Shown here: piece by piece, positions 14,702 to 34,022 of the stretch | Numbering within the stretch: position 1 is the first letter of the stretch | How the letters are laid out: each line of letters begins with the position of its first letter | NCBI GenBank assembly: GCA_029856045.1 | Contig: JAHQWG010000050.1 | Location: forward strand, 1-64,000 | Direction: 5' to 3' | DNA length: 64,000 nucleotides | Origin: Promethearchaeia archaeon | GTDB taxonomy: Archaea; Asgardarchaeota; Lokiarchaeia; Sigyniarchaeales; SOKP01 | Made by a program: the position numbers and the translations under genes | Notes under the pieces: generated by a model | Databases searched by the model: none | Told to the model about the DNA's origin: nothing | Seen by the model: the letters and a program-made list of their open reading frames with translations, nothing else

Positions 14702-15229
14702 TTATATTTGAATACCCTGGCGTTCTAATATTTCTTGAGTTAAACGTTTAAAGGATTCTTCAACATTTTCACCAGTTTTTGAAGATATCTTGAGATAATC
14801 AAATAAATTTAAATCTTCGATATATGATAAAGCAAAGTCATCATTCACATTTATATCTTCTATTAAATCAATTTTAGTCCCAAGAAATAAAACAGGTAAG
14901 TTAGGGTCGTTTTGGCGCACAATTTGAATCCATTGATCAAGTTTTTCCAATGTTGCAATTCTTGTAAGATCAAACATTAGTAATGCTCCTTTAGCCCCTA
15001 AAACATAACTTCCAAGTAAAAACCTAAAACGTTCTTGCCCACCAAAATCCCAGAGTTGAAGTGTAATCTCATTGTCTCCTAAAATAATAGATTTCAGGAA
15101 AAATTCCACACCTATGGTCATTTTAGTTTCACTAAAAAATTGTCCTTCAACAAAACGACGTAATAATGTAGTTTTACCAACACCTCCCTCCCCTGCTGTA
15201 AGGATTTTCATTATGAACTTTTTAGGTAT
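14702..15229 (-). CDS. Rab-like small GTPase (canonical motif order)
   Basis: GEGGVGKTT, TIGVEF, WDFGGQERF, TKID, SSK. ATG at 15211; probable upstream ATA start at 15229 after GGTGGAG gives IPKKFIMKIL. Confidence 0.92.
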   Translation of the reverse strand: MPKKFIMKILTAGEGGVGKTTLLRRFVEGQFFSETKMTIGVEFFLKSIILGDNEITLQLWDFGGQERFRFLLGSYVLGAKGALLMFDLTRIATLEKLDQWIQIVRQNDPNLPVLFLGTKIDLIEDINVNDDFALSYIEDLNLFDYLKISSKTGENVEESFKRLTQEILERQGIQI

Positions 15230-15451: not shown

Positions 15452-15991
15452 TTAATATGTATCCTTATCTCTATACTCTTTTACAGAGATTTCTCTTTCT
15501 GGTAGCCGATTAAATTTTTTAAGAGTATTCAAAATACATTTGACTTCAGATTTTGTTTGTAGATCATATTTTTTCATACCCTCGAGGATTTCCTTCTCAC
15601 CAAATCCTTTTTTATAAAGTTCATTAAACTTATTTACTGATTCTTCGTGAAAATAAATATATCTATTATCCAAATATACAATTAGATATGGTTTTTTGCG
15701 TTGTTTTTGAGATAATTTAAATAACTCTTCTCTAATTTTTCTCAAGGGTTTTTTCATTTTATTAGCAATTGTATCCTCTTCAATCATATAATATTCCATC
15801 ATTTTTGCTTTAAAAGATCTCTTGAAGAAGAGATTAGGAAGATATGACAACAAATATAAAATTATTGCAATACCCACTAACCAAATTGCTAGTATTGGTT
15901 CTATAAAAAAAACAAATATCACGGCTATTAAAAAAATTAGAAACCAGTTACGCCCAACACGTTTGAAAAATACAATAATTTTATTAGGCAT
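15452..15991 (-). CDS. Hypothetical protein with two N-terminal TM helices
   Basis: ORF 15452-16075; likely start MPNKII at 15991. Confidence 0.65.
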   Translation of the reverse strand: MPNKIIVFFKRVGRNWFLIFLIAVIFVFFIEPILAIWLVGIAIILYLLSYLPNLFFKRSFKAKMMEYYMIEEDTIANKMKKPLRKIREELFKLSQKQRKKPYLIVYLDNRYIYFHEESVNKFNELYKKGFGEKEILEGMKKYDLQTKSEVKCILNTLKKFNRLPEREISVKEYRDKDTY

Positions 15992-16120
15992 CGATATTTT
16001 AAGATTATTTTCAAAACTATTTAAATTTTCTAAAAGTAAATCAATTAAATTAAGAGTTTTAAGTAAAATGATCATAATAAATGTAGGAATATTTCAATTA
16101 GATTGATAATAGTGAGTAAA

Positions 16121-16150
16121 GAGTAAAATTAAAATAAAAGTGTTTATTAT
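16121..16150 (+). promoter_or_regulatory. Putative BRE/TATA promoter of the 5S precursor
   Basis: Purine-rich GAGTAAAA followed by TTAAAATA about 25-30 nt upstream of the precursor stem at 16160; weak evidence in AT-rich DNA. Confidence 0.35.
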
Positions 16151-16159
16151 AAATTTATA

Positions 16160-16316
16160 GCATTTCACACTAAACTGGAAGTTAAACAACAAACCGTTAC
16201 AGGTAAGTACTGATATTGCGATTATCGGGAAACTGTAAACTGTTAATTCGTTAACGGTCATAGGATGTTGGAAAAACCTGATCCCTTTCCGAACTCAGAA
16301 ATTTAGTGCGATTTGC
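16160..16316 (+). other. Precursor processing stem with a relaxed bulge-helix-bulge motif enclosing the permuted 5S
   Basis: CACTAAA(16168-74)/TTTAGTG(16302-08) outer helix; CTGG(16175-78)/TCAG(16295-98) 4-bp central helix; bulges AAG and AAA lie 3' of the central helix on each strand. Confidence 0.8.
16181..16300 (+). rRNA. rrf: 5S rRNA gene, circularly permuted (3' half 16181-16246, TTCG linker 16247-16250, 5' half 16251-16300)
   Basis: Reordered sequence folds as 5S: helix I TTAACGGT/ACTGTTAA, helix II GGATGTTG/CAACAAACC, helix III-loop C CTGATCCCTTTCCGAACTCAG, helix V TTACAG/CTGTAA, loop E AGTA/GAA, helix IV CTGATA/TATCGG with GCGA loop; 116 nt. Confidence 0.93.
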
Positions 16317-16322
16317 ATTCTA

Positions 16323-16330
16323 TTTTTTTT
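16323..16330 (+). terminator. Oligo-T terminator after the 5S precursor
   Basis: T8 tract immediately after the processing stem. Confidence 0.55.
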
Positions 16331-16392
16331 AAAAATTCTTGAGTTAATCAAAAAAAAATAAAAATTTTCTATTTAGATTACCATAATCTCTA

Positions 16393-17643
16393 TTATGGAA
16401 AGATTCCCCGTAATTCAATTGCTTTTGCAACTCTTGAGACAGCAATCATATATGCCGCTATTCTATAAGACACATTTTCTTCTTTAACCAGTTTATATAC
16501 AGATTCAAATGCATTAAGAATAATTTTCTTTAGTTCTTTATTAACTCGATCTAAATCCCAATAATATGCATTTATATCCTGTACGTATTCAAAATAAGAA
16601 ACGATTACGCCTCCACCGTTAGCTAGAATATCGGGAATAATAACAGTACCCTTTTTATTAAGAATTTCATCTGCTTTTGGTGTTGTAGGTCCGTTTGCGC
16701 CCTCTAAAATAATTTGACAATTAAGATCATTTGCATTATACTCAGTTATTTGATTTTCTGTTGCTGCAGGAATTAAAATATCACATTTGATTTTAAAAAA
16801 TTCTTCATTAGGAATGATCTTAATAGAATCATCTTTAAAATCAGTAATAAGATTTCCTCTTCTTTGCCATTCTATTAATTCATCTATATTTAAACCTTTC
16901 TCAGAATAAATTGTACCATAATACTCTGAAATTGCTATTATTTTTGTTCCATATTCATACAGCCTTTTACCAATAATAGAACCAACTTTTCCAAAACCTT
17001 GAATTATTGCAGACATAGATTTTAAATCAAGACCTTCTTTTTCACAAAATTTCTCTATCACAAAAAAAATGCCAGTTCCCGTTGCTTCACTTCTACCTGG
17101 GGATCCTCCAATTTCCAAGGGTTTTCCAGTCACAACGCCAGGCATTGTAGCTCCATGTTGCATTGAATATGTATCCATCATCCAAGCCATAGTTTGAGCA
17201 TTAGTACCTACATCTGGAGCAGGAATATCTTTATCTGGTCCAATAATATTGATGATTTCTGCAGTATATCTCCTTGTAAGTCGTTCAAGTTCTCTTTGTG
17301 ATAACTTTTTAGGATCAGCACAAACTCCACCTTTAGAGCCACCTAAAGGGAGATTGTGTAGAGCGCATTTCCAAGTCATCCAAGTAGCTAATGCTTTAAC
17401 CTCATCTAAAGTAACATTAGGGTTAAAACGCACTCCACCTTTTCCAGGACCTCGAATAGTTGAATGGTGAACACGATATCCTTCGAAAATTCTAAGACTA
17501 CCATCATCCATAATAATGGGTATTGAAACAATTAACGATCTTTCTACTCTTTTAAGAAAACTGTGCGTATCTGAATTTAAATTCATTTTTTCAGCTACGA
17601 GTGCCAACTGTTGTTTTGCCATTTCAAAAGGATTAACTTCCAT
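16393..17643 (-). CDS. gdhA: Glutamate dehydrogenase (Glu/Leu/Phe/Val family), paralog 2
   Basis: GPGKGG, MTWK, GGSKGG, DIPAPDVGT, QGFGKVG, EGANGP, PDILANGGGV. Confidence 0.93.
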   Translation of the reverse strand: MEVNPFEMAKQQLALVAEKMNLNSDTHSFLKRVERSLIVSIPIIMDDGSLRIFEGYRVHHSTIRGPGKGGVRFNPNVTLDEVKALATWMTWKCALHNLPLGGSKGGVCADPKKLSQRELERLTRRYTAEIINIIGPDKDIPAPDVGTNAQTMAWMMDTYSMQHGATMPGVVTGKPLEIGGSPGRSEATGTGIFFVIEKFCEKEGLDLKSMSAIIQGFGKVGSIIGKRLYEYGTKIIAISEYYGTIYSEKGLNIDELIEWQRRGNLITDFKDDSIKIIPNEEFFKIKCDILIPAATENQITEYNANDLNCQIILEGANGPTTPKADEILNKKGTVIIPDILANGGGVIVSYFEYVQDINAYYWDLDRVNKELKKIILNAFESVYKLVKEENVSYRIAAYMIAVSRVAKAIELRGIFP

Positions 17644-17741
17644 AAGATTTTCCTTATTAATTTTTCAAATTTATATTAATATTTTGTTTTATAAAAGTTG
17701 TAATTAAATATTACAGATAATATTATCATTTTTTTCCTACA

Positions 17742-18995
17742 TTATGGAAAAATTCCCCTTAATTGTAAGGCTTTTGCAACTCTTGAAACTGCAATCATAT
17801 AAGATGCAGTTCGAAGGGTTTCTTTCTTTTCTTTAGCAACGCTACAAACATTTTCAAACGTATCTAAGATAATCTTCTTTAGTTCTTTATTAACTCGATC
17901 TAAATCCCAATAATAAGCATTTATATCTTGAACGTATTCAAAATAAGAAACGATTACGCCTCCACCGTTAGCTAAGATATCAGGAATAATAATAGTACCC
18001 TTTTTATTAAGAATTTCATCTGCTTTTGGTGTTGTCGGTCCGTTTGCGCCCTCTAAAATGATTTTACAATCGATATCATTTGCATTATGCTTAGTAATTT
18101 GATTTTCCGTTGCAGCAGGTATCAAGAGATCGCATTTAATTTTGAATAGTTCTTCATTGGTAATTGATTTTATAGAATTTCCTTTAAAATCCTTAAGGAA
18201 TTTTCCTTTATCTCTCCATTCTATTAACTGATCTACATCAAGGGCCTTCTCAGAATATACTCCCCCCGCTAATTCAGTAATTGCAATAATCTTACATCCA
18301 TATTCATATAACTTTTTGGCAATAACCGAACCCACTTTGCCAAATCCTTGAATAACCACAGTCATTGATTTTAAATTAAGGCCAAACTTTTCGCAATATC
18401 TTTCAATTACAAAAAAAAGTCCAGTTCCTGCTGCTTCAGTTCGTCCAGGGGAACCCCCTATTTCTATTGGTTTTCCTGTAACAACTCCAGGGATTGTTTT
18501 CCCATGCTGCATTGAATATGTATCCATTATGTATGCCATAATTTGAGCATCTGTACCAATATCTGGTGCTGGAATATCTATATTAGGTCCTATCATATTA
18601 ATTATTTCTGCAGTATACCTTCTAGTAATCCATTCTAATTCTCTTTTTGATACATTTTTAGGATAAACACAAACGCCTCCTTTTGAGCCTCCAAATGGGA
18701 GTCTATGAAGGCTTGTTTTCCAAGTCATTAACATAGCTAAAGCTTTAATTTCATCAAGTGTCACCAATTGGCTATATCGTATACCACCTTTACAAGGACC
18801 AAGAACAGAGGAATGTTGAACTCGAAATCCTTCAAATATTGTTAGGTTTCCATCATCCATGATGACAGGAATTGAAACAATAACTGAGCGTTCTACGTTT
18901 TTGAGAAATTTTTCAATATTTGGAGGTAAATCTATTTTTTTTGCAATAATCTCAAGTTGTTTTTTTGCTATTTCATAAGGGTTAATTTCCCACAT
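17742..18995 (-). CDS. gdhA: Glutamate dehydrogenase, paralog 1
   Basis: Same motifs; tandem duplicate. Confidence 0.93.
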   Translation of the reverse strand: MWEINPYEIAKKQLEIIAKKIDLPPNIEKFLKNVERSVIVSIPVIMDDGNLTIFEGFRVQHSSVLGPCKGGIRYSQLVTLDEIKALAMLMTWKTSLHRLPFGGSKGGVCVYPKNVSKRELEWITRRYTAEIINMIGPNIDIPAPDIGTDAQIMAYIMDTYSMQHGKTIPGVVTGKPIEIGGSPGRTEAAGTGLFFVIERYCEKFGLNLKSMTVVIQGFGKVGSVIAKKLYEYGCKIIAITELAGGVYSEKALDVDQLIEWRDKGKFLKDFKGNSIKSITNEELFKIKCDLLIPAATENQITKHNANDIDCKIILEGANGPTTPKADEILNKKGTIIIPDILANGGGVIVSYFEYVQDINAYYWDLDRVNKELKKIILDTFENVCSVAKEKKETLRTASYMIAVSRVAKALQLRGIFP

Positions 18996-32738: not shown

Positions 32739-34022
32739 ATGTTAGATTATTTAAATCTCGATTATAAACCTTCTGATAATGATCTTAAAGTAATGTATTA
32801 TGTTGAGAAAGCTGCTGATACTTCTTCTATAGAAAAAGCATGTGAGGAAATTGCTAAAGAAAGTTCTATTGGAACTTGGACTGATATTGTAACTCTTTCT
32901 GAGGATATTGCTCAAAGATTAAAACCATGCGTATATCATATAAATAAAGAGAAAAAAATAATTAAGATCGCCTATAACGAGGAACTCTTCGAAGCAGATA
33001 ATATTTCTCAAATCCTGAGTGCTATTGCTGGTAATATTTATGGCATGAAAGCAATTAACAATTTAAGATTAATTGATATAGAGTTTCCAAAAAGTATAGT
33101 AAGTGTATATAAAGGACCTAAATTCGGAATAAAGGGAATTCGCAAATTATTAAAAGTTTTTGGTAGACCTCTTTTGGGTACAATTGTTAAGCCAAAAGTG
33201 GGCTTAAATCCAAAACAGCACGCAAAAGTTTGCGGAGAGTCGTGGATAGGAGGTTTAGACATAGTAAAAGATGATGAAAACTTAACAAGCATGAAATTTA
33301 ATAAATTTGAGACAAGAGTTAAAGAAACTTTAAAGATACGGGATAAAATCGAAATAGAAACTGGCGAAAAGAAAATATACATGCCAAATATTACAGCTCC
33401 GGTTAGTAAAATGAAAGAGAGAGCGGATTTTGTCATTGAACAAGGAGGAGAGTATGTAATGGTTGATATTATTACTTTAGGATTTTCTGCACTTCAAGAA
33501 ATACGAGATTATCTTGATGATAAAAATGTTGTGATACACGCTCATAGGGCAATGCACGCTGCCATAACAAGAGACCCAAAACATGGTATGACGATGTTAT
33601 CAATTGCTAAAATATCAAGGCTAATCGGAATGGACCAACTACATACTGGTACAGTAGTTGGAAAAATGGAAGGTGGAGAGAAAGAAGTAGTAGATATCAA
33701 TAAGGTACTTACTAATATGTTTATTGAAGAAGAAGATTATTCAATGTTACATCAAGATTGGGGAAATATTAAGAAAACTTTCCCCGTTGCTTCTGGAGGT
33801 CTTTATCCTAATGTTGTTCATAAATTAATTGATATTTTAGGAACAGATATCGTGATTCAAGCGGGTGGAGGTGTTCATGGACATCCAGAAGGTACCGAAG
33901 CTGGAGCAAAAGCTATGAGGCAAGCAGTTCAAGCTTATTTGGATAACATTAATTTAAGTGAATATGCAAAAACTCATAATGAATTAAAAAAAGCACTTGA
34001 AAAATGGAAATATTTAAAATAA
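32739..34022 (+). CDS. rbcL: RuBisCO large subunit, form III
   Basis: ESSIGTW, GTIVKPKVGL, KDDENL, HAHRAMH, HTGTVVGKMEG, SGG, QAGGGVHGHP. Confidence 0.95.
   Translation: MLDYLNLDYKPSDNDLKVMYYVEKAADTSSIEKACEEIAKESSIGTWTDIVTLSEDIAQRLKPCVYHINKEKKIIKIAYNEELFEADNISQILSAIAGNIYGMKAINNLRLIDIEFPKSIVSVYKGPKFGIKGIRKLLKVFGRPLLGTIVKPKVGLNPKQHAKVCGESWIGGLDIVKDDENLTSMKFNKFETRVKETLKIRDKIEIETGEKKIYMPNITAPVSKMKERADFVIEQGGEYVMVDIITLGFSALQEIRDYLDDKNVVIHAHRAMHAAITRDPKHGMTMLSIAKISRLIGMDQLHTGTVVGKMEGGEKEVVDINKVLTNMFIEEEDYSMLHQDWGNIKKTFPVASGGLYPNVVHKLIDILGTDIVIQAGGGVHGHPEGTEAGAKAMRQAVQAYLDNINLSEYAKTHNELKKALEKWKYLK

What the first reader, a model, noticed from the sequence alone, without database searches (positions are those of the whole stretch)
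16168..16308. BHB-like splice motif predicts the 5S is excised and ligated as a 120-nt circle with the canonical junction restored
Seen: the leader CACUAAA-CUGG-AA^G pairs with the trailer UCAG-AA^A-UUUAGUG. This gives a 7-bp outer helix, a 4-bp central helix and a bulge 3' of it on each strand; the inner side is relaxed (BHL-like). Known: archaeal EndA cuts after the second bulge nucleotide and RtcB ligates the products. Those cuts (16180/16181 and 16300/16301) join ...GAACUCAGAA to GUUAAAC..., exactly the conserved 5S helix III/loop B sequence. The leader CUGG also competes with the 5S CUGA (16278-16281) for UCAG, so precursor and mature folds are mutually exclusive. Inference: the 5S matures as an excised intron-like circle that either stays covalently closed (UUCG-capped helix I) or is reopened at the UUCG loop.
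Basis: partly seen in the sequence, partly recalled or inferred. Interest (0 to 1): 0.93.

Follow-up and report, generated by a model that had tools for sequence, protein, structure and literature searches.

The report
Permuted 5S rRNA gene needing splicing
The only 5S ribosomal RNA gene of this Asgard (Loki-type) archaeon is written back half first between tRNA-splicing signals, so a normal 5S sequence can arise only by cutting the transcript and joining its ends, most likely into a 120-base ring, and in relatives the cut point has moved repeatedly and small spliceable introns have been added.

Summary
Window 16181-16300 is a circularly permuted 5S rRNA gene, the only 5S found in this Lokiarchaeia-type genome. 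Its flanks form a 7-bp outer helix, a 4-bp central helix and a relaxed inner side. The genome encodes two EndA subunits and RtcB.

In 80 permuted genes from the same order, the central helix is 4/4 in 78. Only a cut after bulge nucleotide 2, the EndA rule, restores the conserved sequence in all 49 genes of this register. Thirty relatives break the gene at a different site with the same geometry, and the registers interleave on an rtcB tree. Eighteen genes also carry 29-31-nt BHB-type inserts, likely introns. Cut-and-join is therefore very likely (about 0.9). That the ring stays closed is inferred (about 0.6 overall). I obtained no RNA data.

The closest precedent is the permuted, circular SRP RNA of Thermoproteus; I found no paper on a permuted archaeal 5S gene. 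This scan has already noted permuted 5S genes in many other Asgard genomes.

The parts
16168..16174 (+). Leader strand of the outer (h') helix; extends to 10 bp in three congeners
16175..16178 (+). Leader strand of the 4-bp central helix (CUGG); competes with 5S 16278-81 for UCAG
16179..16181 (+). Leader-side bulge AA^G; predicted cut 16180/16181; inner side relaxed
16181..16246 (+). Native 3' half of 5S rRNA (end of helix III, loop B, helix II 3' strand, helix V, loop E, helix IV, helix I 3' strand), encoded first
16247..16250 (+). UUCG loop joining the native 3' and 5' ends and closing helix I
16251..16300 (+). Native 5' half of 5S rRNA (helix I 5' strand, loop A, helix II, loop B, helix III, loop C, the conserved AA bulge), encoded second
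16295..16301 (+). Trailer-side central helix UCAG and 3-nt bulge AA^A; predicted cut 16300/16301
16302..16308 (+). Trailer strand of the outer helix
16129..16150 (+). Candidate TATA elements (TTAAAATA at 16129, TTTATTAT at 16143); inferred, not tested
   Evidence: sequence; conserved in congeners
16318..16331 (+). T-rich tract, candidate archaeal terminator; inferred
   Evidence: sequence

Best explanation
A stand-alone 5S rRNA gene is encoded in permuted order. The transcript folds so that leader and trailer form a relaxed bulge-helix-bulge (HBh' type), which keeps helix III from forming. The two-subunit tRNA splicing endonuclease cuts after the second nucleotide of each bulge (16180/81 and 16300/01), and RtcB joins the new ends. 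This gives a 120-nt circle in which helix III and its AA bulge are restored and helix I is capped by a 4-nt loop; leader and trailer play the part of a split intron. The circle most likely stays closed and is the 5S of the ribosome. Shown here: gene order, motif, conservation, the cut register, presence of the enzymes. Inferred: transcription, cleavage and ligation (about 0.9), and retention as a closed ring (about 0.65 given ligation).
For: (1) It is the only 5S-like locus in a genome rated 100% complete whose 23S is assembled elsewhere. The rejoined sequence scores 58.0 bits against a profile of canonical-order relatives, against 26.7 as encoded. (2) Among 80 permuted genes in 13 genera, the central helix is 4/4 in 78, the outer helix has 3 bp or more in 78, and the product is 119-123 nt in 62. 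Leaders complete the motif with their own trailer in 89% of 37 distinct motifs, against 40% with trailers of other genera. Six of seven outer pairs show two-sided changes. (3) A cut after bulge nucleotide 2 gives AAG in 49 of 49 register-A genes; other offsets fail in 7 to 39 genes. It gives UCC in 26 of 30 register-B genes. Each product matches what the other register carries intact in DNA. (4) Eighteen genes carry 29-31-nt inserts. In 15 the best-scoring removal has a 4-bp central helix and at least 2 intron-side pairs, a geometry met by only 0.1-1.1% of candidate sites. These genes need cut-and-join in any case. (5) EndA alpha-like and beta-like subunits and RtcB are encoded. (6) For closure: the linker is 4 nt in all family variants listed, mostly UNCG or UUNG, on a 7-bp helix. 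E. coli ribosomes work with a 5S whose native ends are joined by a 4-nt connector (PMC7283268). The Thermoproteus SRP RNA matures as a circle by this route (PMC4731332).
Against: I saw no RNA read, so ligation is not directly shown here. The leader-side bulge is not closed by a proper inner helix, and whether the Asgard enzyme cuts such a relaxed motif is untested. Permuted tRNAs and archaeal pre-16S/23S circles are precedents in which the circle is an intermediate that is reopened. The loop is closed by A-U here and by G-C in many relatives, not by the most stable C-G.
Confidence: 0.6

Rival explanations
1. The same cut and join occur, but the circle is an intermediate that a nuclease reopens at the helix I loop (16247-50), giving an ordinary linear 5S.
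For: This is the route of permuted tRNAs (cited in PMC4267664) and the classical view of archaeal pre-rRNA circles (PMC12918454). The loop sits exactly at the native ends. Three g6 genomes have a 31-nt insert at or beside this loop.
Against: The linker is only 4 nt, fixed in length and of stable-tetraloop type, with no conserved cleavage sequence or BHB there. A closed helix I is compatible with ribosome function in E. coli, and circular 23S has been reported in archaeal ribosomes.
Confidence: 0.28
2. The mature 5S is linear and permuted: either cut by EndA and left nicked, or trimmed at the outer stem and kept with an extra helix, as in brown algal mitochondria.
For: Linear permuted 5S exists in organelles (PMC4267664). 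I have no direct evidence of ligation.
Against: The break lies at several different places in the helix III, loop B and loop C region across relatives, always with exact restoration of sequence after a position-2 cut. The leader blocks helix III in the uncut form. Intron-bearing genes need ligation anyway.
Confidence: 0.09
3. The locus is an assembly artefact or a dead copy, and a canonical 5S gene is missing from the assembly.
For: rRNA genes are often unassembled in metagenome bins.
Against: The same arrangement, one per genome, occurs in 80 genomes, including single-contig G108 and G109, which have no canonical copy. Helices I, IV and V show compensatory changes.
Confidence: 0.03

Closest known systems
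Permuted, circular SRP RNA of Thermoproteus tenax and T. uzoniensis (Plagens et al. 2015, PMC4731332)
   Same: Essential structural RNA gene in permuted order; leader and trailer form a BHB; EndA cuts; ligation restores a conserved element; the gene was 'missing' from annotation.
   Different: Here the RNA is ribosomal 5S. The arrangement spans many families of a phylum, the breakpoint differs between relatives, and extra introns occur. Circularity was shown by reads there and is only inferred here.
Circularly permuted tRNA genes (Cyanidioschyzon merolae, Soma 2007, cited in PMC4267664; Thermofilum, from my own knowledge)
   Same: Swapped halves, BHB at the ends, circular intermediate.
   Different: Those circles are reopened to restore native ends (by RNase P and tRNase Z, from my own knowledge); here the native ends are joined by a 4-nt loop with no such signal.
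Permuted mitochondrial 5S rRNA of brown algae (Valach et al. 2014, PMC4267664)
   Same: 5S rRNA with helix I closed as a hairpin and displaced ends.
   Different: It stays linear, with an open three-way junction and no splicing; it is organellar; the break is at another site.
Circular or permuted archaeal 16S/23S rRNA (PMC7758197, PMC12918454)
   Same: BHB processing stem, EndA and RtcB, circular rRNA.
   Different: Those genes are in normal order. PMC12918454 states that this route applies to 16S and 23S 'but not 5S'. Rare 5S circles in Sulfolobus came from a normal gene and were not validated (PMC3326292).

Membership tests
5S rRNA (RF00001) | Five-helix fold with conserved loops A-E | tested here: met
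   All helices pair and covary; the rejoined form scores 58.0 bits against canonical-order relatives.
5S rRNA (RF00001) | Colinear gene reaching the gathering score | tested here: not met
   26.5 bits against a cut-off of 38; only the 5' half aligns.
5S rRNA (RF00001) | Present in the 50S subunit | not testable with these tools
   uL5 and a weak uL18 match are encoded; no structure or fraction data.
EndA/RtcB-processed permuted RNA gene (Thermoproteus SRP type) | Halves in swapped order with native ends linked | tested here: met
EndA/RtcB-processed permuted RNA gene (Thermoproteus SRP type) | BHB or BHL formed by leader and trailer, conserved in relatives | tested here: met
   Relaxed HBh'; 78 of 80 with a 4-bp central helix; covariation.
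EndA/RtcB-processed permuted RNA gene (Thermoproteus SRP type) | Cut after bulge nucleotide 2 restores the conserved sequence | tested here: met
   49 of 49 and 26 of 30.
EndA/RtcB-processed permuted RNA gene (Thermoproteus SRP type) | Two-subunit EndA and RtcB encoded | tested here: met
   the subunit roles are inferred from motifs
EndA/RtcB-processed permuted RNA gene (Thermoproteus SRP type) | Junction-spanning RNA reads | tested here: inconclusive
   No RNA run was listed; two junction scans of metagenome contigs gave 0. These blanks are not evidence either way.
EndA/RtcB-processed permuted RNA gene (Thermoproteus SRP type) | Mature RNA remains circular; in vitro cleavage | not testable with these tools
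   Needs RNase R, end mapping and an enzyme assay.
Linear permuted organellar 5S (mtPerm-5S) | Ends at the three-way junction, no splicing motif | tested here: not met
   The ends lie in helix III and carry a splicing motif.

The most novel reading that the evidence does not exclude
Many Asgard lineages use a covalently closed circular 5S rRNA in their ribosomes, made by the tRNA splicing machinery from a permuted gene. The leader-trailer pair behaves like a mobile split intron whose insertion point in the circle has shifted many times between close relatives, possibly by RNA-level reinsertion and copying back to DNA.
Probability: 0.5. Interest if true: 0.92.

Novelty: new variant of a known kind. 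Interest (0 to 1): 0.82.

Why it matters
It would explain why 5S genes could not be predicted in complete Asgard genomes (PMC8813620). It would make ribosome assembly in these relatives of eukaryotes depend on tRNA splicing enzymes. It would give a natural 5S rRNA without free ends, and the first 5S introns I could find. The phylum is a mosaic: canonical order in the sister family f2 and apparently in four other families, permuted in more than 20 families. This gives a natural comparison for how RNA genes become permuted and un-permuted, and it raises the question of which form the eukaryotic ancestor had.

Tried and rejected
The sequencing-run search with a 2.3-kb query listed no RNA holder. 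This is no evidence on expression.

Two exact-pattern scans of metagenome contigs for a sequence holding both the closed helix I and the rejoined junction gave 0 matches. They are uninformative, because it is unknown whether RNA-derived contigs of this size are held.

Rfam at the gathering threshold finds nothing in the window. The bacterial promoter and terminator scan gave nothing above chance and does not cover archaea. The whole-precursor folding z-score is only -1.97, so I did not use folding energy alone as support.

Strong canonical 5S hits in family members G076 and G096 lie beside what reads as a 23S end and look like foreign bacterial contigs; I did not count them. G043 (family f4) looks permuted but gave no clean motif. 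My strict scan found the motif in only 16 of 30 genes from other families. The rest mostly show one central mismatch, an insert, a longer product or a contig end, and I did not score them further.

Literature searches found no report of a permuted or intron-bearing archaeal 5S gene. The library lacks most subscription journals.

Full report
OBSERVATION. Leader CACUAAA-CUGG-AA^G (16168-16181) pairs with trailer UCAG-AA^A-UUUAGUG (16295-16308): seven Watson-Crick pairs outside, a 4-bp central helix with one G-U, and a true 3-nt bulge on the trailer side. On the leader side the bulge is not closed by a proper inner helix, so the motif is the relaxed HBh' or BHL type known from archaeal tRNA introns at non-canonical positions (established knowledge). 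Only 4 of 3.34 million genomic 11-mers could complete this motif with at most one G-U. Predicted pair probabilities show the switch: in the precursor the central helix forms (0.4-0.8) and helix III does not (0.01); in the 120-nt circle helix III forms (about 0.56). The predicted junction is absent from the assembly.

WHAT IT IS. Rfam matches only the second half of the stretch to the first half of 5S rRNA (26.5 bits, cut-off 38). Rejoined at the predicted sites and opened at the UUCG loop, the sequence scores 58.0 bits against a profile of canonical-order 5S genes of the sister family, against 26.7 as encoded. It is the only 5S-like locus in the genome by Rfam and by a model of the permuted form. 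The 23S gene is assembled on another contig. The gene stands alone between an unknown ORF and tandem glutamate dehydrogenases. Records carrying the same pattern are mostly titled Promethearchaeota (Loki) archaea. The genome encodes two EndA-family proteins: one with the catalytic Tyr/His/Lys motifs and one lacking the His and resembling the beta subunit. It also encodes RtcB, uL5 and a weak uL18 match. A two-subunit EndA is the type known to accept relaxed motifs (established knowledge; not tested for Asgard).

RELATIVES FIX THE CUT. I extracted 80 permuted genes from 80 genomes in 13 genera of the order, 70 of them distinct. The central helix is 4/4 in 78 and the outer helix has 3 bp or more in 78. 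The outer helix covaries (AAA/UUU here, GCG/CGC in most others; 6 of 7 pairs with two-sided changes). Kin are not independent, so these are counts, not probabilities. In this genome GAA occurs at both ends, so four adjacent cut pairs give one product. Relatives remove the ambiguity. Of four possible offsets, only a cut after the second bulge nucleotide gives the conserved AAG in all 49 genes of this register (A); in six genes it is the only solution. Thirty genes break at another site, after the 5' strand of helix III (register B: leader CUGG-AA^C, trailer CCGG-UC^A). There the same rule gives UCC in 26 of 30. Each register carries intact in DNA the sequence that the other must create. One genome of another family breaks in loop B (register C). 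That three breakpoints obey the endonuclease's rule is the strongest argument for cut-and-join.

INTRONS IN 5S. Eighteen genes would give 149-151-nt circles. Each has a 29-31-nt insert, at about five positions (loop C, three sites in helix IV, the helix I tip). In 15 the best-scoring removal has a 4-bp central helix and at least two intron-side pairs, a geometry found at 0.1-1.1% of candidate sites. The three at the helix I tip are weaker. These genes need the ligase whatever happens at their ends, which argues against a merely nicked 5S.

A MOVING BREAKPOINT. Registers A and B both occur in three genera. On an rtcB tree of 29 rows they interleave: 8-9 changes, at least 6-7 forced by well-supported branches, and no more clustering than shuffled labels. 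The single-contig genome G109 (A) is sister to G069 (B). Caveats: one marker, a quick search, two genomes with paralogues, and possible binning errors. Helix III is CCGG on both strands in many members, so one leader can serve either site. Reinsertion of the leader-trailer into the RNA circle and copying back to DNA is a plausible route, but it is speculation.

DISTRIBUTION. A model of the permuted form matches in 23 of 25 family members and in 19 other Asgard families. Sixteen of 30 sampled genes from other families have a 4-bp central helix and a 6-10-bp outer helix at the helix III junction, in registers shifted by up to one base. The sister family f2 has ordinary 5S genes, often in several copies. 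Families f12, f15, f17 and f21 have full-length matches above the cut-off (sequences not inspected). Single-contig genomes with the permuted gene have no canonical copy.

CLOSED OR REOPENED. This is not settled. The linker is 4 nt in every family variant listed, mostly UUCG, UACG, UUAG or UUUG, on a 7-bp helix, with no splicing motif. E. coli tolerates a 5S whose native ends are joined by a 4-nt connector (PMC7283268). The Thermoproteus SRP RNA stays circular (PMC4731332), and circular 23S is reported in archaeal ribosomes (PMC12918454). Against this, permuted tRNA circles are reopened. My estimates: ligation about 0.9, closed ring as the mature form about 0.6, reopening about 0.28.

RNA EVIDENCE. 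Earlier scan notes report rejoined forms in environmental RNA for Atabeyarchaeia and Heimdall-group genes. I could not check these and do not count them as support.

COMPARISON AND VERDICT. It works like the Thermoproteus SRP gene and meets every sequence-testable feature of that kind. It differs from the organellar permuted 5S, which is linear and unspliced. I found no paper on a permuted or intron-bearing archaeal 5S gene; PMC8813620 notes that 5S could not be predicted in circular Asgard genomes. The scan itself holds 84 findings with these words in at least 68 genomes, including a near-identical one from another genome. One word search for the moved breakpoint and introns returned nothing. 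Class: new variant of a known kind. Interest 0.82.

Noticed in passing
L286 about 2668-2696 (G036:C2:12134-12162, minus strand) and L287 about 1475-1503 (G020:C13 about 33460-33488): The rtcB gene itself is split at model codon 47/48 by a 29-nt insert with a BHB (UUGG/CCAA central helix, 9-bp intron stem). Removing it restores the G-Y-D-I-N-C-G motif, so the ligase's own mRNA would need the ligase. The insert is absent from this window's genome.
   Followed up: partly
L012, L109, L110 (loop C); L045, L047, L050, L066, L073, L075, L080, L081, L088, L090, L094, L097 (helix IV); L083, L092, L098 (helix I tip): 29-31-nt BHB-type inserts, probably introns, inside 5S rRNA genes. Similar loop C inserts appear in other families (L229, L232).
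   Followed up: yes
L013, L041-L049 and others (register B); L038 (register C): The permutation breakpoint lies at different sites in close relatives and flips along the tree.
   Followed up: yes
L227 and L252 (G166, G176; family f18): The leader holds two CGUGA(A/G)AG segments, and the trailer pairs with the more distant one. This suggests an insert between them and a two-step splice.
   Followed up: no
L028 (G044:C1:1399892-1400758): Three identical-scoring canonical 5S genes in tandem, about 374 bp apart; other f2 genomes also have 2-3 copies, while permuted genes are nearly always single.
   Followed up: no
leaders of most family genes, e.g. L009, L016, L049: A small conserved hairpin (UAGC-N5-GCUA) precedes the outer helix, and a further CCACA/UGUGG stem encloses the precursor. 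Both are reduced or absent in this genus.
   Followed up: no
window 16393-18995 (-): Two tandem glutamate dehydrogenase paralogues; a Ras-family GTPase at 14702-15211 and an unclassified 207-aa ORF at 15452-16075 flank the gene on the other side.
   Followed up: no
G000:C27:163914-164235 (L293): The SRP RNA matches the model full-length in normal order but below the cut-off (77.2 bits against 96.5).
   Followed up: partly
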